Positions 7,515 to 37,873 of a stretch of 64,000 nt of DNA are shown here, piece by piece. The notes beneath the pieces are model-generated. The model had not been told where the DNA came from, searched no databases, and saw nothing but the letters and a program-made list of their open reading frames with translations. The position numbers and the translations under genes are program-made. The stretch's first letter is position 1. Each line of letters opens with the position of its first letter. This DNA is from Trypanosoma brucei. Lineage: Eukaryota. The stretch is taken from positions 2,112,001 to 2,176,000 of the forward strand of contig CM000208.1 of the NCBI GenBank assembly GCA_000002445.1, written 5' to 3'.

Positions 7515-7516
<2 letters not shown>

Positions 7517-14759: not shown

Positions 14760-17700
14760 ATGAAGGCAGCGCAACCCGTTGTTGTGGATGTGGAAGAGAC
14801 ATTTGACAGCGTGGCTGAGAAGTTGTGGTGTGCGTTACCCTCCGTGGCCAAATTCCACGCCACATTTGAGAAGACACCAATTCTTGGTGCTGAAAGCGGC
14901 AATGTGGGTGTAGTGCCACAGCAATCCTCCGTGGAGGACACTTCTGAGGCTGCGGCAGCAAAACTGGACCCACCCGTGACAATACGGGATGCAGTGGTTC
15001 CTGTTGATGAGATGCAACACCTCGCTGGTTGTGTCTACACGGCGTGCCACACGAATCCTGTGGACGCCGATGTGGAAGCTGCTGTCGCCGCGATTTTAGA
15101 CAAAGGGGATGAGGAAAATTCTGTCGAATACAGCTGGGGTGATTTCCGTGAGTTTCTGGAGCGTGTCGAGTCGCAGTGGATGGAGTGGGCCGACATGGAC
15201 CAGAAGTGGCTGGCAGTCACGGAAAGACAGCACATTCAGGTACTGAAGGACTTGTTAGAGTCGATAACTTATGATGTAGAACCTTTTGGACTGCTGCCAC
15301 GTGACAAAGTTCTTACGATGCGTTCCACTATTGTTCACACGAAGCAGCTGCGGACTCTATTTAAGACTTTCGTTGATTTTGTGTCTCCTCCTGAGTACCC
15401 GGCGGTTTATGACAAGCTGTGGGGGCTGCTTATCGCATCTCAAAACGGCTGTGAAGTTGCGGAAGTGAGCCCAGAAACCCCTCTTGAGCTGAACTCTTTC
15501 ACTAAATTCGTTCTGTGGTTTTGCCTTTCGATATTCGTAAACGCCACGGAAGCAGGATTAGTTGTGGCTGCCAAGACGTTGTGGCTCAGGCACCTCAACG
15601 AGCGAGGTGTTATGTTAAAAAAACAGTTTGTGGATGTGTGTCGCTACATGTGTAAGTTTTACAGTGTTGGTGGAAGTGATGTAGAATATTTTGAAAAATG
15701 TTGTGCCCGCAGTGAAGAAGCTCTACAGGGCTCAGACGAACTTCCCCCATTCGCACTTTTCCAACAGTACATGCAGCCCACAGAAGGCCGCATGCTGGTC
15801 GACCCGAACGATCTCTACATTCCAGAAGAGCTCGAGCGGAGTAAATGGATGGAGGAACTTTACCGCATGAATTGCAGTTCCAACCGCATTATTGTTCATG
15901 GCCGGCGGGGTGTTGGAAAGTCACATCTGGCGGCTTCCTTGGCGAAACGGTTGGGTTGCGTTCACTTGGATGCTGGAGAGCTCGCCCTCGAAGCAGAAGC
16001 TGCAGCTCCGGCCGATCCACTCGGGGCACAGTTACGTGAATGCACGGATGCAGATGCCCCCATTTCGCTCGCAACCCTCGCAGCACTTGTACGCAAGAAG
16101 ATATGTAGCAGCGAAACACGGTATAGGGGTTATGTGTTCAGCGATATTCCATTTTTTTCTAGCGAGAATGACGCGGAGAAAATCAGTTTTTTTACCGATT
16201 GTGGTCTTTTGGATGAACTTGTGCCCACCACATTTGTGCTGGTGGATTGTGAAAACGAGTTTCACCCCGAACGACTTGAGGCTACACTGGCGGCACGGGA
16301 GTCAGACCACCAGGAAGAACTGAGTCTTTTGAAAGAGGAGAAAGAAGAGGAAGCTTCTTACGAGGCACTGGCGCAAAAAATTGAGGAGTTGAAGGCGACA
16401 TTGTCGCAAATTACTACAAAACAGGAGGTGGAGGGTGGTGCGGAGGCACCGGAAGGCGAGGAAGCGAACGCTCCGGAGCTGGATCCCGAGGAGGTTGAGA
16501 AGGACTTGAAACAGTTACTTGAGGATCAAACTGTACAAGAAGAGAGGAAGATTGAGCAGGCTGATTCCCGCATCGCCCGTACCAAGAAGTATAGGGAATT
16601 GAGATTAAGGAGGCTCGTTGCGCAAACTCTCTCCGAGGGATACGAAAGCGGTAATGAAATGTCTCTGACAGCATTGCCATGTTTCGAGACCGCTCTCTGT
16701 CGTGCCCGCTTGATGGGTCGGTGTTTGACGGTTGACTGTGCTTCCGTTGCGGAGGAGGCTGTTACCTACATTGTGGACACGCTGTCATTACAACCCTGCG
16801 TCAGACCCTGGGCCCTTGTTGACAAGGTGGAACGGGACCCCGAAAGGGAAGGAAGCGTATTTGATGACCCGGATATCGAGCGTCTCACGGAGGAGTTTGC
16901 CACCAACTTCGGTGTAATGACCTCAAGTCGGTGGAAGCGTTTCTGCCCTGTGACATTTGCTGAACATGGCGTCTTGGTAGAGGGCTCCATAGCTTTCGGA
17001 TGTGTGTTTCGGCAGCAGCTCTTTTACCTCGCATCCGAGGAAAAGCTTTCAATGTTTAGGGCAAACCCATGCCTCTATCTTGGTACACTTCCGCTGAGTA
17101 GGGAACCAATACTTCTTCTTTCCCTTGTTGAACCTCAGAATGATGCGCAACTTTCACCCACTGATATGCAAATATTGGTACGGAAACTGCACGAGCAACT
17201 GGATCTAACTCCCATGGCCTTTAGTGAGTTCACTACCCTTTGGGACAGTCACCGGTTGTTGAAGGGGAAGCGTGCAGAAGTGTTGTCAAATAGAACAAAG
17301 TATGAAGTTGTTGAGCGAAAGCAGCGTGCTGATCGGCTGAAGAAGCGTTTGGCGCAAGAGAAGCGAAAGAAGAAGTCTCAGAAGAGTCCTGGAAAAGGTA
17401 AGGGCAAGAAAGCTAAGTCTGTTGTGGAAGAAGTCACCGTAGAGGAATACAAGGGGTGGGAGAAGAAGGCGGAGGCACCGGAGACTATTGCCACACGCAT
17501 CGCGAAAAATTTGGAAGAGAGGCTTGAACGCCAGAATACACTTGTCCCCGTTTTGGTGCACGCGTTGGACGACAACCCCCTTAGTGGGTTCGATCAATTG
17601 TTTTCAGAGAAGGTCGTACCTCGCACAGTGGTCGTACTGCAGTATGAGAAACCGACGAAGGCGGAGGATAGTGCGGTGCTGGAACCGTCAGCAGCTGAAG

Positions 17701-20700
17701 GGGTGGAGGAAAATAGCGGCGAAGTTCCAAAGGTTCTTCTCCCGCAAGAGGTCGTGCTGGATAAGTTGTCAGACCTTCCGGACGGTGGTGTCGATATCGT
17801 GGCTGAGGTGTCACCTCATGACGTCGCCATTCACCGTATTGTCGTTAATGACAAGGATGTGCACGCGTTAGTCACGGAAATCATGCAAGCTGTATGCCCT
17901 GGTATGGACCCTGTTGGGGTGGGCGTTGTTGATGATGCGGTGGGTGAGGATGATGAGGAAGATGCACAGGAGTTTGATGATGATGAAAACGAGGAGGATG
18001 ATGTACCAACCGCAGTCAACCCCGCCATCAAACCAGGAAAAACGTTCCTAAACCAGTTTGGTACCACGTTGGAGTTTTGTCCGGTGACTCTTTGCGAAAG
18101 GAGACTCTTAGTACGAGGCCAGAGTGATCACTGTCTGCAGTATCGAGGTTACGTGTACACATTTGCTTCACTGGAGGCGAAAACAAAGTTTGAGTTCAAC
18201 CCCCTTCGCTACATGCGTTCCTCGTATTCGCTTCCCCCATGTCGCATGTGGATCGTTGGTCAGTCGAAAAGTGGTAAGAAGACCCTTGCACAATCACTCC
18301 ACGAAGCCTACGACGTGCCGTATTTCCAATACAATAGGAAGTTGTTTGACCAGTGCGTTGAAGTCGCTATGACTCCCACAGGTGGCGTGATTAGCAATAT
18401 TTTTATCCCACCGCAGACTTTTGACAATCCTTATCTTGCATTAGCCGCGGGGATCTTAAAAGAGGTGCAGGAGTTTGACCCAGAACAGGAGCGGCGCATG
18501 AAGTTGCGTGAGGAAGCTGAGCGAGAGCTGGAGCGACGCGAGGAGGCGGCAAACAATGGGGATGAAGAGGAGGATGAACTCGACGAAGAGGCCGAAGCGC
18601 GGTTGCAGGAACATTTGGCATTCGAGCCTGAAACTGAGCATGACCGTCAGTTGCGGCTAAGTGAGGCATACCTGAAGGTTGCGGGTTGTGTAACGCACAT
18701 AGAGCCTTTCGCTTCGAAGGGTTACATCATGGTGTGCCCTCCCTTTTCTGACGGTGATATAGAGGTTCTATCATCCGTGGACGCTATTCCTGAGGTTACA
18801 GTGAATATGGAGGTTTCGGATGAAATCTATATTAAACGTAACAAGGAGGCGATGAGCAGCGTAAGTTATTCTGAAATGTCATCAGGTGGTATACCAGAAG
18901 TCCGTGAGGAGCCCGTGGTTAATGAAGAAGCCAAACTTTTGAGGAGGTTAGAGTATGAAGATAGGCGGAAGGAGCGTGAAGTGGCCAGGTGGCGCCGTCG
19001 CCACATTGGCGCAGATGACCCGGAGTCAGACATAGACGAGGAGCTCGGGGACGAAGGAGCTGCTGGAGGTGGGAACGATGAAAGCCAAGAGGATGAAGCT
19101 AATGAGCGTCCATTTGATCAAGATTTGATCGTGGAAAAAGAAGCCGTTGGAGAATTTGCGGAAGCTGTTGAGGAGCGTTCAATCCCGATGATCGTACTCA
19201 ATGGCGATCTCTCCCGGAATGCCGTTTTTCGCAGGGCGGTCCGTCGGTTGAGTAGGTTTTTAGAAAATCGTCGCTCCCTTTTGCACGCCCCGCAAATTGT
19301 GCGGTATGAGGATGCCACTCGGATGCTCGAGTCAGGCGAGGCAACCCTGTCATGCTTCGGCAGCACCGATCCCGTGACGCTGTATGACCTCAGACACGGA
19401 AGTAGGCGTGTATGCAAATGGAGGCCGGATGGTGCATATCTGGAGGAGGAACCTTTGATAGAACCTGACTCGTCTTCTTCCGACGCCCAGGGGACAGCAG
19501 TTCCTGAAGGAAGTGAGGGTAAAGATGAATCAGAAGACACTCTCGACTCCGGCGATAGAAAGCCAGAGCCCCCTCAGTTAGACACGTCTTCCACGGAGGG
19601 AGACACTGAAAGTGGTGACGATGAGGAGATGAGTGAGCTGGATTCAGAGTTACTGGATGAAATCACCGAAAAATTCGCTAATCGACGTCGACGTGAATGG
19701 CTTCGTACATGCCAGCGTGTGGCCCTCCTCCATGGCCGTTTATTCTTCTTCGAGAGTGATGAAACGCTCTTACGCTACATGCAGAATCCTCTTCTTTTCA
19801 TTCAACAGCCTCCGCCACAGCCTCCACTACGGAGCATGCCCGTGATTACATTTTATGACGATGACGGTGCGTATCCCCCTGAGAATAGCGGGCCGTCGAG
19901 GAAGCGATGTACCGCTGAGCACGTAGCCTTCAATCTAAACTGGATTTATCTTTCTCTTCCGAAGCTCCTCTCCTGGAGCGCAGTAAATGCTTCCTTGCTT
20001 TCTTTGTCGAGAAAAGCTATTGATGCTGTTCTTAGCGGTTCTGTGGATGATGCTTTGGTGGCCCGGTTGCTAGGTCATCGACTCAATGCGGCTGATGCTA
20101 AGCAGAACGGCGTTGTGCTCCACAACTTGCCGAGGACCCCCGACCAATACCGTCTGCTTTTGGCGTGGGGACTTAAGGTGGACAAAATATTTCAGTTTGA
20201 TGACAATTACAGGGACGTTGCGACCCTAATGAAGTCAACGGCCACCATTGAGAAGCAACTGACGACAGCTCGAGTATCTGTCGCCGGTCTCTCTGAAATT
20301 TGCGACTGTATTGATGGTTTCGTCGTCAACGAGGGTCGTGCAATTTTATCTCACCTAACGGGGTTCCCTATAGATATAGACAATTCATACCACACGGTAG
20401 CCGATATTGAAACGCATCTCTCACCATATCGCTGGTTCTGCCCTTACAGTTGGTGTTTGGGTGAAAACCTTGTGGACCAGGAGAAGGCTGACTGCCGTTT
20501 CGCGGCTTTGTACGATGGCCAGTACTACTTTTTTTCTTCTGAGGAGTACCTCGAGAGGTTTCTTCTGTGTCCCTCGCAGGTGACGCTTCCACCCGGATTC
20601 AAAGCCCTCCCGACCCCTCTTCCCGTGCGGGTACAACCCAGCACAGAATATGCGTTCGAGTTGGAGGGATGCTGTCCTGTTCTCTTATACGATACACGGG

Positions 20701-21269
20701 AAAACCGAGGCCTTCGTGGTGTATTGGAACCTGTGGCAAGGAAAGGTAACCCGTCTTGCATTGTTGAGTATGGCGGTTGCTACTACGCCTTACTTGATGA
20801 GGAAGCAGTCCGAAGGTTCCTCATGCGTCCATGGCAATATGTGGACGGAGCGAAGTTGCCGCCCTCGCGGAAGGTGCCACTACCGGAAGGTAAGACGATG
20901 TCTACCATTGATGAAGAGGAGTTCATCCGCCGTATACTTTACGACCCTGTTGCGCACGCTCTGATAGCCGTGGCGGAGGTGCGCCCAAAGTACTACGGGC
21001 TTTCGCTGGAAGAGTCTGCGCTAAAGTATATTGCCCTTCACATGAAATGCTTTAATCCCAAGAATAGTGAGATACAAGCCAAGCAGTACAAGAAGAAGTT
21101 TGAAATTTTCAGCAAGCAATCTACATTGTACAAAACTATAACGATGCATTCCAACAGTATTACGCAGAATGAAAAGTTTGCAGAGCTTTGCGATGAGTGG
21201 GAGAATTCCAAGTATGGCCGCGAAAAGGAGCTTTCAATACACTGCGGTTGTGAGACCGAGCCTGTTTGA
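14760..21269 (+). CDS. giant multi-domain protein with degenerate adenylate-kinase-like P-loop modules and four YHS/TRASH-like Cys-Pro repeats; possibly flagellar
   Basis: This is an uninterrupted 2169-aa ORF. P-loop 1 is RIIVHGRRGVGKSHLAASLAKRLGCVHLDAGEL...GYVFSDIP (nt about 15900-16150). P-loop 2 is MWIVGQSKSGKKTLAQSL (nt about 18245-18300). An AK-like NMP/LID remnant, GVVLHNLPRTPDQYRLLLAWGLKVDKIFQFDD, lies at nt about 20110-20200. There are four repeats of about 45 aa: FCPVTFAEHG...YLASEEKLSMFRANP, FCPVTLCERR...YTFASLEAKTKFEFNP, FCPYSWCLGE...YFFSSEEYLERFLLCP and CCPVLLYDTR...YYALLDEEAVRRFLMRP. Long Glu/Asp-rich tracts are also present. Confidence 0.85.
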   Translation: MKAAQPVVVDVEETFDSVAEKLWCALPSVAKFHATFEKTPILGAESGNVGVVPQQSSVEDTSEAAAAKLDPPVTIRDAVVPVDEMQHLAGCVYTACHTNPVDADVEAAVAAILDKGDEENSVEYSWGDFREFLERVESQWMEWADMDQKWLAVTERQHIQVLKDLLESITYDVEPFGLLPRDKVLTMRSTIVHTKQLRTLFKTFVDFVSPPEYPAVYDKLWGLLIASQNGCEVAEVSPETPLELNSFTKFVLWFCLSIFVNATEAGLVVAAKTLWLRHLNERGVMLKKQFVDVCRYMCKFYSVGGSDVEYFEKCCARSEEALQGSDELPPFALFQQYMQPTEGRMLVDPNDLYIPEELERSKWMEELYRMNCSSNRIIVHGRRGVGKSHLAASLAKRLGCVHLDAGELALEAEAAAPADPLGAQLRECTDADAPISLATLAALVRKKICSSETRYRGYVFSDIPFFSSENDAEKISFFTDCGLLDELVPTTFVLVDCENEFHPERLEATLAARESDHQEELSLLKEEKEEEASYEALAQKIEELKATLSQITTKQEVEGGAEAPEGEEANAPELDPEEVEKDLKQLLEDQTVQEERKIEQADSRIARTKKYRELRLRRLVAQTLSEGYESGNEMSLTALPCFETALCRARLMGRCLTVDCASVAEEAVTYIVDTLSLQPCVRPWALVDKVERDPEREGSVFDDPDIERLTEEFATNFGVMTSSRWKRFCPVTFAEHGVLVEGSIAFGCVFRQQLFYLASEEKLSMFRANPCLYLGTLPLSREPILLLSLVEPQNDAQLSPTDMQILVRKLHEQLDLTPMAFSEFTTLWDSHRLLKGKRAEVLSNRTKYEVVERKQRADRLKKRLAQEKRKKKSQKSPGKGKGKKAKSVVEEVTVEEYKGWEKKAEAPETIATRIAKNLEERLERQNTLVPVLVHALDDNPLSGFDQLFSEKVVPRTVVVLQYEKPTKAEDSAVLEPSAAEGVEENSGEVPKVLLPQEVVLDKLSDLPDGGVDIVAEVSPHDVAIHRIVVNDKDVHALVTEIMQAVCPGMDPVGVGVVDDAVGEDDEEDAQEFDDDENEEDDVPTAVNPAIKPGKTFLNQFGTTLEFCPVTLCERRLLVRGQSDHCLQYRGYVYTFASLEAKTKFEFNPLRYMRSSYSLPPCRMWIVGQSKSGKKTLAQSLHEAYDVPYFQYNRKLFDQCVEVAMTPTGGVISNIFIPPQTFDNPYLALAAGILKEVQEFDPEQERRMKLREEAERELERREEAANNGDEEEDELDEEAEARLQEHLAFEPETEHDRQLRLSEAYLKVAGCVTHIEPFASKGYIMVCPPFSDGDIEVLSSVDAIPEVTVNMEVSDEIYIKRNKEAMSSVSYSEMSSGGIPEVREEPVVNEEAKLLRRLEYEDRRKEREVARWRRRHIGADDPESDIDEELGDEGAAGGGNDESQEDEANERPFDQDLIVEKEAVGEFAEAVEERSIPMIVLNGDLSRNAVFRRAVRRLSRFLENRRSLLHAPQIVRYEDATRMLESGEATLSCFGSTDPVTLYDLRHGSRRVCKWRPDGAYLEEEPLIEPDSSSSDAQGTAVPEGSEGKDESEDTLDSGDRKPEPPQLDTSSTEGDTESGDDEEMSELDSELLDEITEKFANRRRREWLRTCQRVALLHGRLFFFESDETLLRYMQNPLLFIQQPPPQPPLRSMPVITFYDDDGAYPPENSGPSRKRCTAEHVAFNLNWIYLSLPKLLSWSAVNASLLSLSRKAIDAVLSGSVDDALVARLLGHRLNAADAKQNGVVLHNLPRTPDQYRLLLAWGLKVDKIFQFDDNYRDVATLMKSTATIEKQLTTARVSVAGLSEICDCIDGFVVNEGRAILSHLTGFPIDIDNSYHTVADIETHLSPYRWFCPYSWCLGENLVDQEKADCRFAALYDGQYYFFSSEEYLERFLLCPSQVTLPPGFKALPTPLPVRVQPSTEYAFELEGCCPVLLYDTRENRGLRGVLEPVARKGNPSCIVEYGGCYYALLDEEAVRRFLMRPWQYVDGAKLPPSRKVPLPEGKTMSTIDEEEFIRRILYDPVAHALIAVAEVRPKYYGLSLEESALKYIALHMKCFNPKNSEIQAKQYKKKFEIFSKQSTLYKTITMHSNSITQNEKFAELCDEWENSKYGREKELSIHCGCETEPV

Positions 21270-23258: not shown

Positions 23259-25025
23259 GTGATTATGGCTTCGTTATCACCCCTGGAGTCAAGAAGAAAC
23301 ATGCAATTGTCCCCTTATGCTTCCCCGCGGCGCAACCCAATGGCAACACTCCACACGCGTGAAGCCCCTTTGGAGGGCCGTGAGGCAGAGGCTGCGTTGA
23401 TATCTGCCACGCTCGCAAATGCTCAGCTGCGCGCATCACAGGCCGCCGTAGAGCAGCGCTCGGAAGAGGTGGATGATCTCCGAGAGGCCCGAGATGCCCT
23501 GGAGAGGGAAATGGCGGAAAAGGACGAGGAGAGCCAGGCAGCAGCAACATACTTTGAAAAGCAAATGACTTTGGTGAAGGAGGTGAACCGCAAACTCAAG
23601 GAAGAATTGGTTAACGAGCGTGCGACGGCTGAACTGCGTATGGAAGAGGTTGTGGGCAAAATGCAGGAGGAACTTCAAGAGCGTGATAGCCTTATAGCAA
23701 CTTTGAAACAGCGCCTTGAGGATGTTGAGAGTGACCTCAGAAGCGTTATCGAGTTCAGGGACGCGCGCGATGCGCACGAAAAGGAAATTAAAGAACTTCG
23801 TGTAGTTTACGCAGAAGAGTGTGAAAACCATCAGCGCAATGAGCGAGAGATGCGGCTTCAGTGCATGGAAGAGCGTGTGAGGCTTCGGGAAAAGGAGGAA
23901 AAGTATGAGCGAGAGCGGGAAGAAGAGGTTGCACGTTTAGCGCGTAGTTACCTTAGCAAAAAGACGCGTGCTATAGAAGAACAGAACAAAAGCCTCGAGA
24001 CACACATCTCCTTTCTTTCCAGTGACGCAGATGCTGCGCGAAATGAAGCAGAGACTTTGCAAAAGACTAACAACGGGCTAAGGCGAGATGCCGAACTAGC
24101 ATCTTCGGTGGAGACAATGCACGCAGTTCATCACGCGAAGCAGAGGAACGAGATTGCCCTCCTCAGAGATCAAGTGAGAACCACCGAAGACAACTTAAAT
24201 AGTTCATTGGAAGAGTATGAGAAGCGATTGCAGAAACAGGAGAAGATCCATGCGGCTGAGATGATGAAACTCTCAAGTGAGCGTGACAAGTGGCGGTCAA
24301 CCGCAGAGAATCTGCGTGCTGACTTGCTAAAGATGCGTTCAATTTCAGAAAAGTTAATCGAACAACGTTCCGACATGGAAACGTTCTTTCACCAGGCCCT
24401 GGAACAGGTTCGCCAGGAGGTGTCAGAGGAACGACGGAACGCTCCGCACAAAATTTGTTTCCGCAAGCCTCCCAAAGGGATCCCGTCTGATTTGCTGCAG
24501 CTTACGCGGGGCAGGGAGCCGCTCATGATCGGTGACCGCAGCCATGTGATGCCGACATCGCATTCCACACTTACGAAAAAGGTGGTCGATGCCAACGTGT
24601 CGTGCACAAACAGCAGCGTAGTTTCTCGTAGTGCCGACACGGGGGGCGGGTCACTTCCATTAATCACAATGTCGGGATCTCCGTTCTTTTCTCCAGCAAA
24701 TGTGCTTGTGCCACCAATAGAATGGCGCAGCACCAGTCGTGAAATGCAGGCGACGAACGGCGGTAGACTCGTTGAGGAGCGTCCATTGGGAATCAGCGAC
24801 CTCCTGAGTGTTCCAACTGCGCCGAAGATAAAGGACCTCCATACAGTTGATATATCGCAACTAAGTTGGTCCGATAAGGAGCGCGTATTGCAATTGTTGT
24901 TCAAGCACATGAAGAGGGGGGCCACTGCAAAAAAAACGGAAAAGCGGGTCCCCACGCATGACACGAATTTTTTGTCGATCACTCCATCTGCGACCCCTGA
25001 AGTAAACACATTTCTCACGGATTAA
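23259..25025 (+). CDS. coiled-coil protein (cytoskeletal/flagellar type), conserved hypothetical
   Basis: This is a 588-aa ORF. Residues about 50-380 are heptad-rich and charged (EEVDDLREARDALEREMAEKDEE..., KEIKELRVVYAEECENHQRNEREMRLQ...). The C-terminus carries a conserved-looking motif, DISQLSWSDKERVLQLLFKHMKRG. Confidence 0.7.
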   Translation: MIMASLSPLESRRNMQLSPYASPRRNPMATLHTREAPLEGREAEAALISATLANAQLRASQAAVEQRSEEVDDLREARDALEREMAEKDEESQAAATYFEKQMTLVKEVNRKLKEELVNERATAELRMEEVVGKMQEELQERDSLIATLKQRLEDVESDLRSVIEFRDARDAHEKEIKELRVVYAEECENHQRNEREMRLQCMEERVRLREKEEKYEREREEEVARLARSYLSKKTRAIEEQNKSLETHISFLSSDADAARNEAETLQKTNNGLRRDAELASSVETMHAVHHAKQRNEIALLRDQVRTTEDNLNSSLEEYEKRLQKQEKIHAAEMMKLSSERDKWRSTAENLRADLLKMRSISEKLIEQRSDMETFFHQALEQVRQEVSEERRNAPHKICFRKPPKGIPSDLLQLTRGREPLMIGDRSHVMPTSHSTLTKKVVDANVSCTNSSVVSRSADTGGGSLPLITMSGSPFFSPANVLVPPIEWRSTSREMQATNGGRLVEERPLGISDLLSVPTAPKIKDLHTVDISQLSWSDKERVLQLLFKHMKRGATAKKTEKRVPTHDTNFLSITPSATPEVNTFLTD

Positions 25026-25758: not shown

Positions 25759-28488
25759 ATGATCCCCGTGGCAGGCCGCCGCAAAGGCCTGAGTCAGGCA
25801 CCTAATTTGGGGTCTGCGGGGAACAATGAGACAAACTCATCGCTTGGTGGAGGCTTCACCACCTCAACCGGAGCAGCACCTTCACCTGCTACCGCCGGGG
25901 ACGCCCTTTCGTTTCTTGACTTCGATAACGACACCGGACCCACACAAGCTTCCGCACCCGTCGCATCACGAAGGGGAGCCCCCACAGCTGCACCCCCTCA
26001 GCGGGACACACTTTCGTTTCTCGATTTCGATGACGATGAAGGACCTTCCAAGCCTTCAGCACCTGCTGCGTCAAGGAGGACGGCACCCCCAGTCGCCCCC
26101 GCCCCTGCGCAGAGCGCCCCGTCATTTCTTGATTTTGACGATGATGACGGACCCACAAAACCACCCCCGCGATCGCAACCTCCGGCATCTGCCGCCTCCA
26201 GAGGGGCACCCGCTCAGGCAGTGCCCTCCTTTCTCGATTTCGATGACGATGCTCCTGCAAATGTTCCTTCAACACCTCAACCCTCTGCTGCGGTGTCTTT
26301 AGAAATCACTAATCGGTGGCACGAACTGCAGAAGGAGCTCCAACGCGTGCAAGTTGAGACCCTCAGTTGCGAGGAGGTGATTCGGAAGTTCGAAAGCGGC
26401 GAACACGAATTGTGCCTGGAAGTGGGGACTCTAGACGAACAAGTGCAGCAGAAGCAGGCGGCGGGGGAGAAGGCAGCTGCAGCGCGAGAAGAGTTGGAGA
26501 GGGCGCTGGAACTAAGACGCCAACAGCTCACAGAAGAGAACGAGGCAAAGCACAAACAACTATTAGTGGAGGGTGTCAATACCATGCGAGAGCGGTACGA
26601 GGACGAGCTGAGTACTCTAACTGCATCTGTAGAAGACCAGAAAGTGAACCTGTTGGCTGTTGAAGAGAAGCACAGCACTATGGATGGGTCGATCAGCAGT
26701 GTTGAATTATATGAACGAGCGGTTTGTCAACTGCAAGAGAGGTTGAAGGCAACGCTGCGCGACATAAGCGCTGCGGTTTGCTTGCGAATCAAACCGTCGC
26801 TCACTAATTGCATCAGAGACACCGTAGCACAGTTTGCCCAGGAGAGGTCGGATATGCAGTGCAATGATCGGCGTAGAAGACGCGAGCAGTTGGACACTTT
26901 CCAGAAGAATGTGGATAAAGGATTCTCATCATTTTGTGAAGAACGGCGAACTAAACATCAGTCGCGAGTGGACTCCATCTTTGGTGGAGAGAGATTTCGT
27001 TTCCAAGCAGAGGTTGAGCGACGGTTTACCACGTCTAGGATGGAGTTTATGGAACGACAGAAGGAGCTTACAGCTGAGGCAAAGAAAGGAGCGCTGATTA
27101 CTTTTGAGGAGATGACGCGTCGAGCAGCCGCAGATATGGAGGTGTTTCAGAGAAAGATGAAGGAAGAACTGAGGTTGATGGAGGAGCGATATGCTGCTGA
27201 GTTGGCTCATCTTGCGCGGCTTCAGGCTTCGGAGAAGGCGGCGGCACTTCGACCCCGCTGTGAAAATGATGAGCTGGGCTCCAGCGTTACTGCCGCCACG
27301 CCTTCAGTTTGTAAGGCAGTTGAAAAGGATGTGAGGTACTTGCGGGAGCGCGTGGAACAGATTAAGCAGTCTGTCTCACTCGATATCCAGGATCTTTCTA
27401 TTGCTTCACAGCACCCTAGATGTGAATCTCTCTCTGCGTTGGGGAAGGAGCGCATGCTGGCGGAACTGGAGGAAAAAGTGCGTCTGCTTAGTCGCCAGTT
27501 CGGTGCTCAGTGGCAGCGTTTTAAATCTGCAGTGGGACCGCTGCATCAATCCGTGCAGCTGATGGTACGTGGGTTGCAGGACGGGCGAGTGAGAGCCGCT
27601 GCTCAACAACAGGAAACTGAATGTATTTATCGTGAGTGGACCCAAAGTGTTAGGAAGGAATTGTCAATGTGTTTGACAAGTGGTGGGGCGTCGTCAGAGT
27701 CTGCGGAATTACAAAGCGGGCTTGTGTCTATGACTCGGGTAGTGGAGATGGCACGGGCGCAGGTTCAGGCTGTACTGGAGGCTCAGAGGCATCGCTCCGA
27801 GGTGCTAAGGGGCTTTAATTCCGAGGTACAGGAGAGCCTATCTGCACTTGTTAAGCAGCGCGTAGCCTCAAACGGCACCCTCCATTCTGTATTTGATGAG
27901 TATGAGCGTCTGTCCCATGCGGCGGCGGAGGTGGAGGCGAAGCGTAGGGCCCTTGAGGTGGCAGCAGAAAATTACGATCACGCGAAACAAGTATTGGAAA
28001 AGGAACGTGAAACATTCGATGGTAGGTTGAAGGTGGCGCAAGAGCTTGGCGTCAAACTCCGGATCGATTCAGAGAAACTGGAGAGGAAGGCAGCGCGGTA
28101 TGCGCGCGCTCGGCTTTCTGGTGGCTCACAGTTTGTACGGGCTGTTACAATGGAAAAACCACTTCGTGATCGTCTGCAGTGCGGAAAACGTATGGAGTGG
28201 AGGAGTCAATCTCACGGACATTCTCCCAGAAAGCGGGCGGCGGATTGTGTGTCTGGCCACCCATCGCCTAGTTCCGCGGAGTACAGGCGCTCTGCAACTG
28301 CGTCGAACGGTGGAGATGTGCTCGACTTTGTTACTCTTCTGAGTTTTGATGATGCCGTGGGGCAAGGTGACTCTGGAGACTTGCAACACAAGCGGCAACC
28401 GTGCCAGTATAGAAGCACTACGTCGTTTGATCCGTCAAGTTGTGGCAGTGACGGAACGTACTTTACAACACCTTCAACTCTCAACTAA
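25759..28488 (+). CDS. coiled-coil protein with an N-terminal array of four acidic FLDFDDD motifs
   Basis: This is a 909-aa ORF. The N-terminal 180 aa is Pro/Ala/Ser-rich and contains four units spaced about 35 aa apart: LSFLDFDNDTGP, LSFLDFDDDEGP, PSFLDFDDDDGP and PSFLDFDDDAPA, each followed by SAPxASRRxAP. The remainder is a long coiled coil. Confidence 0.75.
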   Translation: MIPVAGRRKGLSQAPNLGSAGNNETNSSLGGGFTTSTGAAPSPATAGDALSFLDFDNDTGPTQASAPVASRRGAPTAAPPQRDTLSFLDFDDDEGPSKPSAPAASRRTAPPVAPAPAQSAPSFLDFDDDDGPTKPPPRSQPPASAASRGAPAQAVPSFLDFDDDAPANVPSTPQPSAAVSLEITNRWHELQKELQRVQVETLSCEEVIRKFESGEHELCLEVGTLDEQVQQKQAAGEKAAAAREELERALELRRQQLTEENEAKHKQLLVEGVNTMRERYEDELSTLTASVEDQKVNLLAVEEKHSTMDGSISSVELYERAVCQLQERLKATLRDISAAVCLRIKPSLTNCIRDTVAQFAQERSDMQCNDRRRRREQLDTFQKNVDKGFSSFCEERRTKHQSRVDSIFGGERFRFQAEVERRFTTSRMEFMERQKELTAEAKKGALITFEEMTRRAAADMEVFQRKMKEELRLMEERYAAELAHLARLQASEKAAALRPRCENDELGSSVTAATPSVCKAVEKDVRYLRERVEQIKQSVSLDIQDLSIASQHPRCESLSALGKERMLAELEEKVRLLSRQFGAQWQRFKSAVGPLHQSVQLMVRGLQDGRVRAAAQQQETECIYREWTQSVRKELSMCLTSGGASSESAELQSGLVSMTRVVEMARAQVQAVLEAQRHRSEVLRGFNSEVQESLSALVKQRVASNGTLHSVFDEYERLSHAAAEVEAKRRALEVAAENYDHAKQVLEKERETFDGRLKVAQELGVKLRIDSEKLERKAARYARARLSGGSQFVRAVTMEKPLRDRLQCGKRMEWRSQSHGHSPRKRAADCVSGHPSPSSAEYRRSATASNGGDVLDFVTLLSFDDAVGQGDSGDLQHKRQPCQYRSTTSFDPSSCGSDGTYFTTPSTLN
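25906..26262 (+). repeat. intragenic diverged tandem repeat (4 units of about 105 nt) encoding xSFLDFDDDxGP...SAPxASRRxAP
   Basis: Four copies of ttcttgacttcgat / ttctcgatttcgat / ttcttgattttgac / ttctcgatttcgat recur at spacings of about 105 nt. Confidence 0.85.
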
Positions 28489-29355: not shown

Positions 29356-31656
29356 ATGAACATGATATCCCTCAATTTCACCCTCTATCGCTTTGTGTGT
29401 GATAAGGTAACGTTTAGCAACATCTTTGCAGTTGATGCTGAGAGCCGGCGCTTCCCCGAGAACTCGCCCTTTTACTGCTGTTGGGCTATTGTTCCACGGC
29501 AACGTGCTGTGTCAACGGTGAAGGCAGCTGAGTGGAGTGGTTGTACACCTGCGTCGTATTTCAAGTCCCATGGTAATGAAATTGTTCTGCCCTTTAATAA
29601 TGCAGTGGGGACTGTTGACATTGAGGGGGACACAAATGTTATTACCTTTAATGTGAGACCATACAGCAACTCGAACGAACCCATATCGGTGGTGGCAAAG
29701 GGGACTCTCGACCCACGGCCGTATGTGGGGAGGTCAAACAGGAACTATGCCATTAAGCTTCGTGACGTTAGCGGCCAGACGATTGGTAAACTTCTCTTTG
29801 CGCTGGAGGCAAGGGAGGAGTCGGGATGTGTCATCAGTACACCGCTGGGAATAGATGGTCAGCCTGGTGTGCATACAGGATTGTCCAATAATCTGTTAAA
29901 CGCAGTGGGTGTCGGGGCGTCTGCAGGCAACCTTGCCCTAAGGAACCGTAACGAAAATGGGAGGAATGGTTATGGCACTGTTGATGGAGGGAAGGTCCAA
30001 TATGACAAGAGGGAGCCGTACGCGCAGCGGGATAACTCTTCATTTTCGAATTCTGTTACACCGCAGGCCGGGTCGTTGGAAGGGATGCCTATGCAAGCGT
30101 TCAATTGTCTGAGAGCCCCAACCTCCACGTCGGCAACTACCGAATGCGATCCCCACTCTTACGTAAAGCTAGATTTGTGCATTGAACGGATTGTTGTCAA
30201 GGATGATTCCAGCGGGCAAGAAAATCCTGTACCATTGCTTCTCGGTGCGAATTACTACTTGAAGGTACGATTCGGTGGGGGCGTGTCCACCACCCAGTCT
30301 GTTGAGTGCCAGGACCCGAGGAAGATCACGTACAAAGACCACATGACGTTCATAGAGGACGTGTGCAGTAACGACAGGCTGCGTTTTTCACTATGGGAGA
30401 ATGGAAAGCAGGTGGCTGGTTTTTCGTTGAACCCCACGAAGTTTCGTGTTGATATTGGTATGCAGAAGGAGTACGCAATCCCTTTCAGATATTATCCCAC
30501 TCGTCAGTCAGCCTTTCTTGAGTTAACTGTGCAGCGCATGGGAGAGCCAAGCCTTGAGGATGTTGAGAAGACAATTGATTCCTTTCGGGTGGTGCGGGGA
30601 ATTCCATTTGGTGGTATGAGGTTCATGGACGAGCAGCTTCAGTTAAGGAGATCCGAGGGGGAAAGTAGCGAGCATCTCAACACAAAGACGATAGGAACTA
30701 CCAGCGGGCACTCGACAACTAACCTCTCATCACACACACCGGAAAAGGCAGTCGAGAAGGGTCAGAGGCCCGAGAAACTATGCAGAGAGGAGTGCGGAAA
30801 ACAACACACGCCACTTCGCGCTGAGCACTCTTCCCCTCCGGTTGCTGCAGAGAAAAAGGACTTTGGTCAACCTGGGCACCACCAAACCAAAGCCAAAAAC
30901 GGGGATAGACATGATACCCACACCAATCCTGCTGTAACCCAACTGGCACCTTCAGAAAGGGTTGGTGAGAACATTACTAACAGTGTTAATTCATCGTTTA
31001 TTGTAAAGCAAGTGTCGCCAGTAAGAAAAGGCAGTTCTGCGAAGCGACATGCTCTGCTGCGTAGGATGACCGAGGAGGAGGTGGTTCCTGCCTCTGCGAT
31101 GCGGCAATACCCAGGCAATGATGCCCCAACGTCTATGAAAACAGTGGTGAGGAGTATGGAAACCACACGCTCCGCTTCACCATTGCGTGTGACAGGGGCC
31201 CCTAGGGGAGACCAGCGGCCTCGAAAACTTGAAGATGAGTATCAAAGCCTTACGGGAGGAAGTAAATTGCTGAGCATGGAGGATGCTTCGCAACCCCGCC
31301 GTAATTCACCAAGCACCTCACCCGACCAGCGGGTACCCGACAACGCCATTGACCGTGAGCGGCTGGTGGATTCACTGCTGCATCGCATGAACGGTCGACC
31401 AGGAATGAACACCACTCTGATGGAGGAATGGATGGAGTGGCGACACACATGTCTTTCCTCTCGCAGTTCTCGATCAGGGTCGGAAGGGAGTGCGTTCTGC
31501 CGTGAAGATTCCGTTGCGTCTCTGGAAATTCGCAGTCATGCCGTAAGCCCCCGCCCAACGAAGTCCCTGTCCCATGCTGCAGACATGCGACCATACACAC
31601 CTGTTATCACAAGGCGGGCTGCATCCGACGGCAGGCCACCAATCCCGGGCCGATAG
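29356..31656 (+). CDS. hypothetical protein with an N-terminal C2-like beta-sandwich region and a Ser/Thr/Pro-rich disordered C-terminal half
   Basis: This is a 766-aa ORF. The C2-like pattern is LDLCIERIVVKDDSSG...YYLKVRFGGG...TQSVECQDP...DVCSNDRLRFSLWENGKQVAGF and lacks an obvious Ca-binding Asp cluster. From about aa 430 the sequence is low-complexity S/T/P/R-rich. Confidence 0.6.
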   Translation: MNMISLNFTLYRFVCDKVTFSNIFAVDAESRRFPENSPFYCCWAIVPRQRAVSTVKAAEWSGCTPASYFKSHGNEIVLPFNNAVGTVDIEGDTNVITFNVRPYSNSNEPISVVAKGTLDPRPYVGRSNRNYAIKLRDVSGQTIGKLLFALEAREESGCVISTPLGIDGQPGVHTGLSNNLLNAVGVGASAGNLALRNRNENGRNGYGTVDGGKVQYDKREPYAQRDNSSFSNSVTPQAGSLEGMPMQAFNCLRAPTSTSATTECDPHSYVKLDLCIERIVVKDDSSGQENPVPLLLGANYYLKVRFGGGVSTTQSVECQDPRKITYKDHMTFIEDVCSNDRLRFSLWENGKQVAGFSLNPTKFRVDIGMQKEYAIPFRYYPTRQSAFLELTVQRMGEPSLEDVEKTIDSFRVVRGIPFGGMRFMDEQLQLRRSEGESSEHLNTKTIGTTSGHSTTNLSSHTPEKAVEKGQRPEKLCREECGKQHTPLRAEHSSPPVAAEKKDFGQPGHHQTKAKNGDRHDTHTNPAVTQLAPSERVGENITNSVNSSFIVKQVSPVRKGSSAKRHALLRRMTEEEVVPASAMRQYPGNDAPTSMKTVVRSMETTRSASPLRVTGAPRGDQRPRKLEDEYQSLTGGSKLLSMEDASQPRRNSPSTSPDQRVPDNAIDRERLVDSLLHRMNGRPGMNTTLMEEWMEWRHTCLSSRSSRSGSEGSAFCREDSVASLEIRSHAVSPRPTKSLSHAADMRPYTPVITRRAASDGRPPIPGR

Positions 31657-35187: not shown

Positions 35188-36009
35188 GAGTGACGCATCG
35201 TTTTCCCCTTTCTTTCCTTACAAAAGTGATAGAGAAGAGGAGGGAAAGGGTTGTTAAAAAATGAGTGTTGCGAAGTTATATCACATTCCATCAAAGGAGT
35301 GAGGGATCATTAGAATCATGCTTTAGTGATGGATCCCTTTCTACTTATTCAGCGAATATCTATATGTATATGAATACGTTTTTGTGTGTGCTTTCGTCGC
35401 TTATTATTGCGCAGTATTGCAACTTTCCTTCTTTTTTTTTTTCCATTGGTTTGTGTTGCTTCAGTGCTGCGTTAAGATGTGAAGCGATGAATGCTCAGAT
35501 GGCGGATAAGTTGTTGAGAAGTGTGAAAGCAAAGGCAAACTAAAAAAAAAAACAATAACAATAATATGAAATGCGTTGGTCTGGAGGTTACGCTTTATGT
35601 TCTGTCGGTTCTTCATCATTAGCATGAGGAGAAGTGAAGTAGCGGAAGAGGAAAAATAAAGAAATATTTGAGAGACGCGCATGCACTTGCAGGTATGTTA
35701 TTAATATGTGTTTGAAGGGATGATGTGGGGAGGGGAGATACGAGTGTCTATGTACAGTTAGTGCGAAAACAACGTCAGATGGTATTTATTTTTCTTTTTT
35801 TCCTCTCTTTTTTATCGCTCTTCTTTTGGAGGGAGAACATACGGCGATGGTGTATTTGTTCGTCTCTCTCTCTTTTTTTTTTTTTAAATCCCCTTCTTCT
35901 CTTCATCTTTTATGCAAGGACGCCTCAGCGATGTGTTAGTTTGTGTTGTCTTTTGTGCATTATTGTTGGGGCGAATTCATTTTCATACGTTTTTAGAGGG
36001 ACTAGAGGA

Positions 36010-36041
36010 ATCATCATCGTTATCATCATCATCATCATCAT
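36010..36041. repeat. (ATC)n trinucleotide repeat
   Basis: Direct reading shows atcatcgttatcatcatcatcatcatcat. Confidence 0.85.
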
Positions 36042-37352
36042 TTGTTTACATATATAAATACAAATACAAATATATTTGTCGAGATGCCTACGAGTGATGT
36101 GAAGTGATGAAAGGCTAAGAAAAGGAAAATAAAGAAAGGAAGAGAAGGAAAGAAGGAATGAATGAATGCGTTGCAAAGGCAAACAAAAGGAAGAATGGGA
36201 CGAAGGAAGTGACATTGATTTAGCTCCACAGCGAGTGTTTGTACGTTTGTGGCTTTTTCTTGGTGTTTCTCCATTCTTCTCTATTTTTCTTTTTTATGCT
36301 CATTTTCTTCTTTTTGTTATGCTTTGTTACGTTATTTTGCGTTACTTATATTTTTGTTGTTGTTGTTCGAAAAAAGATAAGAAAATCAACTTCACGGGTT
36401 AAGTTTCATTTTTATTTTCTTTCTGCGAATCTCCGTGCATGGCGTGAGGAGCTACCGAGTGGTGAGTAATTTACCTCCGGATTTGTTTTTACCGCGCCAG
36501 AGGGAGAATTGAGGCGGGGGGAAAATATTCGAATCGTCAGAATGAGAGGAGGGAAGTTAAGAGGGAGGCGATGAAAAATAAGAAGGGCAGCATCAAAACA
36601 AAAAAAAAGAGAAGAGAAATAAAATAAACAAAAATAATTAAAAGGAGAAAGGGGGAAAAAAATGAAAAGCAAAGGATTTGGGAGGAGGCTTGCTTATTTT
36701 TATATTTTTTCAGCTAGACTTCGACGGATGATAATATTGGTGCCATCATTGCCATATATGTGGTAGTGGTGCCTCTGTTCCATTTTGCGTGTAGATGATT
36801 GTGAATTTGAAAAGAAAAAAAGACGATGCGATGCAACACGTTTAGAGGTCTTTTTCTTTTCTTTCTTTTTTTTTTTGTGGCGTCATGCTATTTTCCATTT
36901 TCTTTCCAAGTTGATGCAATGGAAAGCGGATGCGGTGGAGAATTTCTCCCCTGTTTTTTTTGTTTTTTTATATCGCAGGGTGTGGTGTGTTGCTCGTCTT
37001 CCCCTTTAGTATTGTTTTGTTTCCAGTGAACGAAGCAGTAGCGGGGGGGGGGAGAGAAGCGAAAAAAAAGACATTGAAAAAAAACAATAATTGGTCTAAT
37101 CTGCTTTATTGTTTTTTTTATTTTGTTGTGAAATCATCATTTAACCGCTGCATTCAAATTCCTTGCACTTTTGTTTTCTTCATTCCGTCTTTTCTTCTCC
37201 ATTCCTTTGGGCTTACATCCCATCCTGTTTTTTTTTAACTCGTTTAATTGTGTCAGAGGGTACTTGTGGAGGATATGATGGGAATGTAAACATGCAGATG
37301 GCAAGAAAAGGGAGTACTACAGATTTCTGACAAATAAATATATATAAGTATA

Positions 37353-37360
<8 letters not shown>

Positions 37361-37398
<38 letters not shown>

Positions 37399-37416
37399 TT
37401 ATTTATTTATTTATTT
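37361..37416. repeat. (AT)17 immediately followed by (TTTA)5 compound microsatellite
   Basis: Direct reading shows atatatat...atat followed by ttatttatttatttatttattt. Confidence 0.9.

Positions 37417-37838: not shown

Positions 37839-37842
<4 letters not shown>

Positions 37843-37870
<28 letters not shown>
37843..37870. repeat. (TA)14 microsatellite
   Basis: Direct reading; a shorter (TA)8 lies at 37673-37688. Confidence 0.9.

Positions 37871-37873
<3 letters not shown>

What the first reader, a model, noticed from the sequence alone, without database searches (positions are those of the whole stretch)
25906..26262. Array of four FLDFDDD acidic-hydrophobic motifs at the N-terminus of a coiled-coil protein
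The four units read LSFLDFDNDTGP, LSFLDFDDDEGP, PSFLDFDDDDGP and PSFLDFDDDAPA. They are embedded in a Pro/Ala-rich disordered linker, and each is followed by SAPxASRRxAP. Repeated short Phe-containing acidic motifs in disordered regions are typical of adaptor- or appendage-binding peptides (clathrin-box L-phi-x-phi-[DE], FxDxF, FFAT-like). Four copies suggest multivalent recruitment of one partner to a long coiled-coil filament or tether. The DNA-level repeat also suggests recent unit expansion.
Basis: partly seen in the sequence, partly recalled or inferred. Interest (0 to 1): 0.5.

Follow-up and report, generated by a model that had tools for sequence, protein, structure and literature searches.

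The report
Conserved Phe-Leu-acidic docking motif array
The four SFLDFDDD peptides are real, lie in a floppy N-terminal arm of an uncharacterised, reportedly basal-body, rod-like Trypanosoma brucei protein, and have been kept by selection across trypanosomes and Leishmania, so they are most likely docking sites for a still-unknown partner rather than repeat junk.

Summary
Confirmed. The window is T. brucei TREU927 chromosome 10. The ORF at 25759-28488 (909 aa, Q38A93) is Tb927.10.8810 by adjacency to TbSmee1. It carries four SFLDFD[DN]D motifs 35-36 aa apart, in a Pro/Ala/Ser-rich N-terminal region that AlphaFold leaves unstructured. A roughly 600-aa all-helical, patchily heptad core follows.

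The motif is under purifying selection. Among the four copies the six core codons show 18 synonymous and 0 non-synonymous pairwise differences, while the linkers are only 12-52% identical.

A profile search finds 26 kinetoplastid relatives. In their otherwise unalignable N-terminal regions the only conserved islands are MxPxAGRRKG and three [WF]-L-acidic motifs (PxWL, LxFLD, PxFL). Copy number varies: T. cruzi one FLDF copy plus PDWLF, T. congolense 3, T. brucei 4 (3 in gambiense), T. vivax 5.

"Recent expansion" is wrong for T. brucei, where the DNA units have diverged. It is right for T. vivax, which has a 69-nt repeat at 98% identity.

The motif fails the clathrin-box, FxDxF, FFAT, GAE, W-acidic and FGDF patterns. 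No partner could be identified.

Best reading: a multivalent array of a previously undescribed linear motif on a basal-body scaffold. Interest is moderate.

The parts
25759..28488 (+). Complete CDS of a 909-aa, 100.8-kDa protein: T. brucei TREU927 EAN78277.1 / XP_823105.1 / Q38A93. It is Tb927.10.8810 by adjacency.
   Evidence: Exact sequence match in the protein collection. The next ORF downstream, 29356-31656 (766 aa), matches TbSmee1 = Tb927.10.8820 in length and position. Molecular weight.
25759..25788 (+). Family-wide conserved extreme N-terminus, MIPVAGRRKG.
   Evidence: In the 23-sequence alignment: M 23/23, P 21/22, A 21/23, G 22/23, R 23/23, R 22/23, G 20/23. This also fixes the start codon.
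25759..26304 (+). Disordered, Pro/Ala/Ser-rich, acidic (pI 4.3) N-terminal arm, aa 1-182. It carries the motif array.
   Evidence: Composition, pI, and pLDDT 25-42 in two AlphaFold runs.
25828..25860 (+). Degenerate remnant (ETNSSLGGGFT) of ancestral motif A, P-[SD]-W-L-acidic. The motif is intact in most relatives.
   Evidence: This alignment column holds W in 17/21 and L in 17/21 family members, but S-S/L in T. brucei.
25909..25932 (+). Motif copy 1, SFLDFDND (B-type, preceded by DAL). It is absent from the 874-aa alleles of T. b. gambiense DAL972 and T. b. equiperdum DPX39.
26014..26037 (+). Motif copy 2, SFLDFDDD (B-type, preceded by DTL). It aligns with the family-wide LxFLD motif.
   Evidence: (aromatic 19/20, Leu 19/20, Asp 13/18).
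26122..26145 (+). Motif copy 3, SFLDFDDD (C-type, preceded by SAP).
   Evidence: It is orthologous to T. congolense copy 2.
26227..26250 (+). Motif copy 4, SFLDFDDD (C-type, preceded by AVP). It aligns with the family-wide PxFL-acidic motif.
   Evidence: (F 14/17, L 14/17).
25954..26211 (+). Linkers carrying a basic A-S-R-R/K-x-A-P element midway between the acidic motifs: aa 66-75, 100-110 and, degenerate, 143-151.
   Evidence: Similar elements occur in T. congolense (GASRKAV) and T. vivax (AASRSRPAP).
26305..28110 (+). All-alpha core, aa 183-784: six long helices, partly with heptad periodicity. It has many family-invariant non-heptad residues, for example W627.
   Evidence: DSSP; heptad test; invariant columns; no specific fold or family.
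28111..28485 (+). Disordered, basic (pI 8.5) C-terminal tail, aa 785-909.
   Evidence: pLDDT below 40; pI.
28318..28353 (+). Conserved C-tail acidic-hydrophobic motif, VLDFVTLLSFDD. LLSFD fits the ELM clathrin-box pattern.
   Evidence: regex. In some searches, L860 is conserved in 18/21 members, and 10/21 members fit L[IVLMF].[IVLMF][DE] at this aligned position.
28462..28485 (+). Conserved C-terminal (S)LTTPS motif. In T. brucei it reads FTTPSTLN.

Best explanation
The four SFLDFD[DN]D units are copies of a conserved short linear docking motif with a family-wide core of [W/F]-L followed by acidic residues. They sit in the intrinsically disordered N-terminal arm of a kinetoplastid-restricted, long alpha-helical scaffold protein, Tb927.10.8810, which is reported to be at the basal body.

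Shown:
- The motif is held constant at the peptide level while its codons and the linkers drift.
- Three such motif positions (A: PxWL-acidic, B: LxFLD, C: PxFL-acidic) are ancestral to the family.
- Salivarian trypanosomes have independently multiplied and homogenised them. T. brucei has B, B', C', C. T. congolense has B, C', C. T. vivax has A plus five C copies.

Inferred:
- Each copy binds the same peptide-binding pocket of one partner protein. The Phe/Leu side chains would insert into a hydrophobic groove and the Asp run would contact a basic rim.
- The array, doubled if the helical core dimerises, gives avidity. [quoted passage not shown]

The partner is not identified.
For: 1. Selection on the peptide. 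The six core codons differ synonymously in 18 pairwise comparisons and never non-synonymously, and five of the six codons vary. Linkers are 12-52% identical at protein level and 49-61% at DNA level.
2. Conservation in orthologues. SFLDFDD occurs in T. congolense (x3), SFLDFEN in T. cruzi and T. c. marinkellei, SFLEFDD in T. grayi, SFLDFDD in T. theileri and AFLDFDD in T. vivax (x5).
3. Conserved islands. In a 23-member family alignment, the only conserved columns in the N-terminal disordered region are the N-terminal MxPxAGRRKG and the three [WF]-L motifs.
4. Independent amplification with different unit lengths. T. brucei units are 35-36 aa with diverged DNA. T. vivax has a 69-nt tandem repeat, 5.3 copies, 98% identical.
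5. Disorder. pLDDT is below 40 across aa 1-184 in two models.
6. Scaffold architecture. Long helices are flanked by disordered tails, and the C-tail carries a second conserved acidic-hydrophobic motif.
7. Localisation. [quoted passage not shown]
Against: - No binding partner was found, and none of the known motif classes tested fits.
- The family-wide core is short ([WF]-L plus acidic residues). The second Phe of FLDF is specific to Trypanosoma, so the A, B and C motifs need not share one receptor.
- T. cruzi manages with a single FLDF copy and T. b. gambiense with three, so high valency is not essential.
- Localisation rests on one sentence in one paper. The gene-ID assignment is by adjacency, not by a direct database look-up.
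- AlphaFold gives no hint of local structure or of docking back onto the core.
Confidence: 0.65

Rival explanations
1. Clathrin (or AP-1 ear) recruitment. FLDFD would be a variant clathrin box that binds the clathrin heavy-chain terminal-domain propeller. Together with the canonical LLSFD box in the C-tail, it would link coated-vesicle machinery at the flagellar pocket to the neighbouring basal body.
For: - FLDFD fits the relaxed pattern [LF][IVLMF].[IVLMF][DE].
- The C-tail LLSFD fits the strict ELM pattern, and 10/21 family members fit it at the aligned position.
- Multiple weak clathrin-binding motifs in disordered regions are typical of clathrin partners, as stated for T. brucei CAPs in PMC5399782.
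- The protein's mass of 100.8 kDa coincides with the name TbCAP100. That protein's gene ID could not be retrieved.
Against: - The strict clathrin-box pattern is not met by any N-terminal copy.
- Outside Trypanosoma the motifs (WLDDLD, FLNEVE, FLREDGDD) do not fit even the relaxed pattern.
- Tb927.10.8810 is not among the clathrin interactors with clathrin motifs named in the text of PMC5399782.
- It is reported at the basal body.
- TbCAP100 is not listed among the trypanosomatid-exclusive CAPs (PMC8377397), whereas this family appears restricted to kinetoplastids.
Confidence: 0.12
2. Sticker-and-spacer assembly module. The evenly spaced aromatic/acidic blocks alternate with basic SRR blocks. 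This would drive homotypic or heterotypic condensation, or electrostatic self-association of the scaffold at the basal body, rather than docking to one folded domain.
For: - Eight of the nine Phe residues in the 182-aa arm lie in the motifs, spaced about 35 aa apart.
- Each acidic block is followed about 15 residues later by A-S-R-R in copies 1 and 2, and degenerately in copy 3.
- The same acidic/basic unit structure occurs in T. vivax and T. congolense.
- The C-tail is basic, with pI 8.5.
Against: - Generic stickers tolerate substitution. Here an eight-residue string is identical across copies and nearly so across Trypanosoma species that diverged long ago.
- The basic element is missing from copy 4 and from T. 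cruzi.
Confidence: 0.12
3. Intramolecular regulation. The acidic-aromatic motifs fold back onto basic surfaces of the protein's own helical core or C-tail, or onto the N-terminal AGRRKG. They would act as an autoinhibitory or conformational switch.
For: The N-arm (pI 4.3) and C-tail (pI 8.5) carry opposite charge. The tail holds a related motif, VLDFVTLLSFDD.
Against: Neither AlphaFold model places the motifs against the core, and pLDDT stays below 40. Multiplying the copies is not expected for a one-to-one intramolecular latch.
Confidence: 0.07
4. Neutral repeat expansion of low-complexity sequence with no function.
For: - Copy number varies between species and even within T. brucei, 4 versus 3.
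- The T. vivax array is a near-perfect DNA tandem repeat.
Against: - The core shows 18 synonymous and 0 non-synonymous pairwise codon differences, set against diverged linkers.
- The motif is conserved across the whole kinetoplastid family.
- Tandem Repeats Finder finds no array in T. brucei.
Confidence: 0.03

Closest known systems
Clathrin-box and DLL/DLF motif arrays in disordered regions of clathrin adaptors (AP180/CALM, epsin, amphiphysin)
   Same: Several copies of a short hydrophobic-acidic peptide sit in a Pro/Ala-rich disordered region, and each is presumed weak on its own. The C-tail LLSFD fits the pattern.
   Different: The N-terminal copies start with F rather than L and fail the strict pattern. 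Family-wide variants fail even the relaxed one. The host protein is a long helical rod reported at the basal body. It is not a membrane-binding ENTH/ANTH adaptor.
FGDF motifs of alphavirus nsP3 and USP10, which bind the NTF2-like domain of G3BP (recalled from the literature, not tested)
   Same: The local sequence is strikingly similar: [ST]-F-x-D-F-D-[DE], present in tandem copies in a disordered region.
   Different: Position 2 is Leu, not the Gly that defines FGDF. The second Phe is not conserved outside Trypanosoma. No G3BP-like partner was examined.
LFa (Leu-Phe-acidic) repeats of the FAM21 tail of the WASH complex, which bind retromer (recalled from the literature)
   Same: Many copies of an aromatic/Leu plus acidic-run motif in a long disordered tail give multivalent recruitment.
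   Different: The residue order differs, and the pattern LF[DE]3-10LF is not met. The host is unrelated, and no evidence for WASH in this context was examined.
Kinesin light-chain 'W-acidic' motifs ([LM][DE]W[DE])
   Same: LDFD inside each T. brucei copy has the same shape with F in place of W. These motifs also typically occur in pairs in disordered regions.
   Different: The defining Trp is absent, and the LDFD arrangement is not conserved outside Trypanosoma.
PEX5 WxxxF/Y diaromatic repeats, which bind PEX14
   Same: Repeated aromatic motifs in a disordered N-terminal half, with variable copy number between species. Family variants such as WLDDL and FLDML have hydrophobic residues at i, i+1 and i+4.
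   Different: T. brucei has F-x-x-F, not W-x-x-x-F/Y. The protein has no TPR cargo-binding domain and no peroxisomal or glycosomal link.

Membership tests
Clathrin box (ELM LIG_Clathr_ClatBox_1) | Peptide matches L[IVLMF].[IVLMF][DE] in a disordered region (pattern recalled from ELM). | tested here: not met
   The four N-terminal copies read FLDFD, with F at position 1. Only the separate C-tail LLSFD (aa 860-864) matches.
Clathrin box (ELM LIG_Clathr_ClatBox_1) | Physical binding to the clathrin heavy-chain terminal domain. | not testable with these tools
Tb927.10.8810 is not among the interactors named in the text of PMC5399782, and that paper's supplementary tables are not held.
AP-2 alpha-ear motifs (FxDxF, DP[FW], WxxF-acidic) | Regex match. 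| tested here: not met
   No match anywhere in the protein. From established knowledge, T. brucei also lacks AP-2.
Gamma-ear / GAE-binding motif | An acidic run followed by F-x-[DE]-[FLWM], i.e. [DE][DE][DE]F.[DE][FLWM] (recalled). | tested here: not met
   The core F-L-D-F matches F.[DE][FLWM], but the required upstream acidic residues are absent. Here the acidic residues follow the motif.
FFAT / FFAT-like motif | Core [FY][FYKREM][DE][ACST].[DE]. | tested here: not met
   No match. Position 5 is Phe rather than a small residue.
FGDF motif (G3BP NTF2-like ligand) | F-G-D-F with an obligatory Gly (recalled). | tested here: not met
   The sequence is F-L-D-F in all four copies.
Kinesin light-chain W-acidic motif | [LM][DE]W[DE]. 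| tested here: not met
   The sequence is LDFD, with Phe in place of Trp.
LIR / AIM (Atg8-interacting motif) | [WFY]-x-x-[LIV] with acidic residues upstream. | tested here: not met
   F-L-D-F has Phe at the last position. It fits only the very permissive 'nematode' variant.
Functional short linear motif (generic SLiM criteria) | Located in an intrinsically disordered region. | tested here: met
   pLDDT is below 40 across aa 1-184 in two models, and the composition is Pro/Ala/Ser-rich.
Functional short linear motif (generic SLiM criteria) | The motif is conserved relative to rapidly diverging flanks, both in orthologues and in paralogous copies. | tested here: met
   18 synonymous versus 0 non-synonymous codon differences in the core, with linkers 12-52% identical. 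The motifs are conserved islands in the 23-sequence alignment.
Functional short linear motif (generic SLiM criteria) | A demonstrated binding partner and loss of binding on motif mutation. | not testable with these tools
   This needs a pull-down, BioID or AlphaFold-Multimer screen.
Coiled-coil scaffold / tether | A long alpha-helical region with heptad periodicity. | tested here: inconclusive
   There are six long helices at aa 186-784. Only 29% of windows exceed the 95% shuffle threshold, and segments 320-430 and 600-630 lack heptads. PDB and Pfam hits are generic coiled coils only. The oligomeric state was not tested.

The most novel reading that the evidence does not exclude
The [W/F]-L-acidic peptides (PxWL-D/E, LxFLD, PxFL-D/E; SFLDFDDD in African trypanosomes) define a previously undescribed, kinetoplastid-wide docking-motif class. 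Its receptor would be a basal-body or flagellar-pocket component. The Tb927.10.8810 family, possibly working with its neighbour Tb927.10.8800 (the two are fused into one ORF in an unnamed kinetoplastid), would be a lineage-specific tether. Its valency would be tuned by repeated motif amplification in the Salivaria.
Probability: 0.4. Interest if true: 0.55.

Novelty: new variant of a known kind. Interest (0 to 1): 0.42.

Why it matters
Kinetoplastid basal-body and flagellar-pocket biology depends heavily on lineage-specific proteins whose interaction logic is unknown. A conserved, repeated eight-residue peptide on an uncharacterised basal-body rod is a ready-made experimental handle. A synthetic peptide with a Phe-to-Ala control could fish out the partner and place Tb927.10.8810, and perhaps its neighbour Tb927.10.8800, in a pathway.

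The independent amplifications give a natural series for asking how motif valency is selected. These are four old copies in T. brucei, three in T. congolense, five recent copies in T. vivax, and a 3-versus-4 polymorphism within T. brucei.

The finding is not a new principle. Multivalent linear-motif arrays on scaffolds are well known.

Tried and rejected
- **Motif-only protein search.** I concatenated the motif variants to look for other proteins carrying the motif. 495 candidates shared words with the query, but none scored E <= 10. The tool cannot score such short matches against 5.8 billion sequences, so whether other proteins share the motif remains unknown.
- **Word-indexed search with the 23-member alignment.** It returned the same four Trypanosoma proteins and nothing beyond kinetoplastids.
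- **Family and fold searches.** Pfam on the protein and on all family members gave nothing specific. A PDB profile search gave only coiled-coil noise. A Foldseek search of the better AlphaFold model against the PDB gave no hit with E < 1.
- **AlphaFold, run twice (5- and 23-sequence alignments).** The motifs do not dock onto the core, and the arm is unstructured.
- **Literature.** The strings SFLDFD, FLDFDD, SFLDFE, PSWLDD and 'FLDF motif' occur in no held paper, and the three PDWLF hits are unrelated papers. 'L6202.3' also occurs in none. Tb927.10.8810 occurs in only one work, held as paper and preprint.
- **Supplementary tables.** No hits or nothing held for the TrypTag, cullin, basal-body BioID, cell-cycle phosphoproteome, TbPLK and clathrin-interactome papers.
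- **TbCAP100 lead (same mass).** This could not be checked because Adung'a et al. 2013 is not held. One review lists TbCAP100 outside the trypanosomatid-exclusive set, which argues against identity.
- **Overlapping ORFs.** I considered and rejected that the ORFs at 25826-26302 (+) and 25889-26275 (-) are real. The cross-species conservation is in the frame of the 909-aa protein.
- **A wasted query.** One literature search was made too broad by the term 'TcCLB'.
Full report
**Identity of the locus.** The window is Trypanosoma brucei brucei TREU927 chromosome 10. The ORF at 25759-28488 (+) is an exact match to EAN78277.1 / XP_823105.1 / UniProt Q38A93, 'hypothetical protein, conserved', on a 4.05-Mb contig. 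All large ORFs in the window lie on the + strand, as expected for a trypanosome polycistron.

The next ORF downstream (29356-31656, 766 aa) matches TbSmee1 = Tb927.10.8820 in length and position. The target gene is therefore Tb927.10.8810 by adjacency. Counting ORFs onward to the CDP-alcohol phosphatidyltransferase at 52986-54284 is consistent with that gene being Tb927.10.8900 (TbCEPT), an ID I recall from memory.

Only one work, held as paper and preprint, mentions Tb927.10.8810. It is described there as basal-body localised, kinetoplastid-specific, and strongly down-regulated when cullin TbCul-E is silenced (PMC12816148).

**The observation.** It is correct. The protein has SFLDFDND at aa 51-58 and SFLDFDDD at aa 86-93, 122-129 and 157-164. 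The spacing is 105/108/105 nt.

The surrounding 182 aa are 16% Pro, 18% Ala and 12% Ser, with pI 4.3. They are unstructured in two AlphaFold runs, with pLDDT 25-42. Residues 186-784 form six long helices, and the last 125 residues are again disordered.

Heptad periodicity in the helical core is real but patchy. 29% of windows exceed the 95% shuffle threshold, and some stretches have none. Pfam, a PDB profile search and Foldseek give only generic coiled-coil noise. 'Coiled-coil protein' is therefore a fair but approximate label.

The 'SAPxASRRxAP' element follows copies 1 and 2 exactly, copy 3 loosely and copy 4 not at all.

**Is the array selected or neutral?** Within T. brucei the six codons of SFLDFD differ between copies only synonymously. 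There are 18 pairwise synonymous differences and 0 non-synonymous ones, and five of the six codons vary. The linkers are 12-52% identical in protein and 49-61% in DNA. Tandem Repeats Finder sees no array. These are old duplicates whose peptide core has been held fixed.

The T. congolense orthologue (48% identical overall) has three copies. Their linkers align with those of T. brucei copies 2-4, so at least three copies predate that split.

T. b. gambiense DAL972 and a T. b. equiperdum assembly encode an 874-aa allele that lacks exactly aa 48-82, which is one unit. Copies 1 and 2 share an 11-nt identical stretch at the corresponding position. That fits an unequal-exchange deletion, which is my inference.

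**The wider family.** An exhaustive profile search of 1.84 billion representative proteins found 26 relatives. The named ones are all kinetoplastids:
- T. grayi, T. theileri and T. vivax
- Phytomonas
- Leishmania tarentolae ('L6202.3-like')
- Leptomonas and Novymonas

The rest come from unnamed Logan or JGI assemblies.

In a 23-sequence alignment the N-terminal disordered regions are otherwise unalignable. The conserved islands are:
- The extreme N-terminus, M-x-P-x-A-G-R-R-K-G.
- Motif A, P-[SD]-W-L followed by acidic residues (W in 17/21).
- Motif B, L-x-F-L-D (aromatic in 19/20, Leu in 19/20).
- Motif C, P-x-F-L followed by acidic residues (14/17).

The C-tail carries a conserved [DE]-F-x-[ST]-x-L-[VLI]-x-[LVIF]-[DE]-D motif and a near-terminal SLTTPS.

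In T. brucei, copies 1 and 2 (preceded by Leu) are B-type and copies 3 and 4 (preceded by Pro) are C-type. Motif A has decayed to SSLGGGF. T. cruzi, T. grayi and T. theileri keep A (PDWLF) plus one B copy (SFLDFEN, SFLEFDD, SFLDFDD).

T. vivax keeps A and has five identical copies of NTPAFLDFDDPPAASRSRPAPQQ. In a second T. vivax assembly these are encoded by a 69-nt tandem repeat of 5.3 copies at 98% identity. There the array has a frameshift, and the gene was called from an internal ATG.

The same peptide has therefore been amplified at least twice independently, with different unit lengths. One amplification is ancient (brucei/congolense) and one is recent (vivax).

**What kind of motif is it?** I scanned the protein with regular expressions for known motif classes. 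The definitions are recalled from ELM and the literature, not looked up. The N-terminal copies fail all of these:
- the clathrin box L[IVLMF].[IVLMF][DE]
- FxDxF, DP[FW] and WxxF
- the full gamma-ear pattern
- the FFAT core
- the kinesin-light-chain W-acidic motif
- ABBA, SIM and LFa

They fit only relaxed versions: [LF]-first clathrin box, the F.[DE][F] core, LD[F]D, and the permissive nematode LIR. They also resemble the FGDF motif, but with Leu where Gly is obligatory.

Outside Trypanosoma the motifs read WLDDLD, FLNEVE, FLDMLD and FLREDGDD. The second Phe is therefore a Trypanosoma feature, and none of the relaxed fits holds family-wide.

The C-tail LLSFD does fit the strict clathrin box, and 10 of 21 relatives fit it at the aligned position. 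That keeps a clathrin link alive as a minority hypothesis. Against it, the protein is not among the clathrin interactors named in PMC5399782 and it is reported at the basal body.

The motif strings themselves occur in no held paper.

**Mechanism.** The best-supported reading is a multivalent array of a linear docking motif on the flexible arm of a rod-like basal-body scaffold. The selection, the disorder, the conservation and the repeated amplification are shown. Binding of each copy to one partner pocket, and avidity through multiple copies and probable dimerisation, are inferred. The partner is unknown.

Rivals, in order of my confidence:
- A clathrin or AP-1 ligand (0.12).
- A sticker-and-spacer or charge-block assembly module. 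The acidic motifs alternate with basic SRR elements, and 8 of the 9 Phe residues in the arm lie in the motifs (0.12).
- An intramolecular latch onto the basic C-tail (0.07).
- Neutral repeat expansion, contradicted and the family alignment (0.03).

**Novelty and interest.** Multivalent motif arrays on scaffolds are a known kind of thing. This motif, the protein family and its anatomy appear undescribed in the literature held here. I class it as a new variant of a known kind, of moderate interest (0.42). It gives a direct experimental handle on an uncharacterised kinetoplastid-specific basal-body protein, but it does not overturn anything.

**Noticed on the way.** An unnamed kinetoplastid encodes a single 1328-aa ORF. 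It joins an 8810-type protein to a homologue of the T. brucei upstream neighbour, ORF 23259-25025, which is Tb927.10.8800 by adjacency (31% identity over 382 aa, E = 2e-31). This 'Rosetta-stone' fusion hints that the two adjacent helical proteins work together.

Noticed in passing
window 23259-25025 (+) and protein P0012/P0033: In an unnamed kinetoplastid (JGI/IMG and Logan assemblies), one 1328/1329-aa ORF fuses an 8810-family protein (AGRRRG, PSWLLGDD, LSFLDDSDDD, PAFLWDD, helical core) to a homologue of the T. brucei upstream neighbour ORF. The match is 31% identity over 382 aa, E = 2e-31. This is a possible Rosetta-stone link between two adjacent coiled-coil genes. The neighbour has no Pfam or PDB hit.
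   Followed up: partly
L001 2459-3115 and 2576-2940 (T. vivax GCA_021307395.1): The T. vivax orthologue's motif array is a 69-nt tandem repeat (5.3 copies, 98% identical). In this assembly a frameshift after the fourth copy splits the gene, so it was annotated from an internal ATG (699 aa) rather than as the 880-aa Y486 protein. This is either an assembly indel or a real strain difference.
   Followed up: partly
window 25900-26006 (aa 48-82 of the 909-aa protein): There is an in-frame 105-nt (one unit) copy-number polymorphism within T. brucei. TREU927 and T. equiperdum OVI have 4 motif copies. T. b. gambiense DAL972 and T. b. equiperdum DPX39 have 3. Copies 1 and 2 share an identical 11-nt stretch, CTTTCGTTTCT.
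   Followed up: partly
window 28318-28353 and 28462-28485: The disordered C-tail has two further conserved peptide islands. VLDFVTLLSFDD has a strict clathrin-box match at LLSFD, and 10/21 relatives match there. The second island is a near-terminal (S)LTTPS motif found across the family, and its function is unknown.
   Followed up: partly
protein P0018 (3161 aa, Logan): This read-through gene model contains an 8810-like segment followed by a TbSmee1-like segment. It suggests that the 8810-to-8820 gene order is conserved in a distant kinetoplastid (by eye).
   Followed up: no
window 9267-10289 and 12626-13882: Two RabGAP-TBC domain genes (Pfam E = 2e-55 and 8e-64) are separated by a 389-aa ORF with no Pfam hit. 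They look like a local paralogue pair.
   Followed up: no
window 14760-21269: A 2169-aa ORF combines an adenylate-kinase / AAA-like P-loop region (aa 377-521) with a FAP206 / YHS-like segment (aa 1104-1153). It is probably a flagellar protein.
   Followed up: no
window 7496-7561: A (TG)33 microsatellite lies in the intergenic region downstream of the ABC1-kinase gene.
   Followed up: no
window 36001-38000 and 50001-52000: Two intergenic stretches have markedly low G+C (0.35 and 0.37, against about 0.47 for the window).
   Followed up: no
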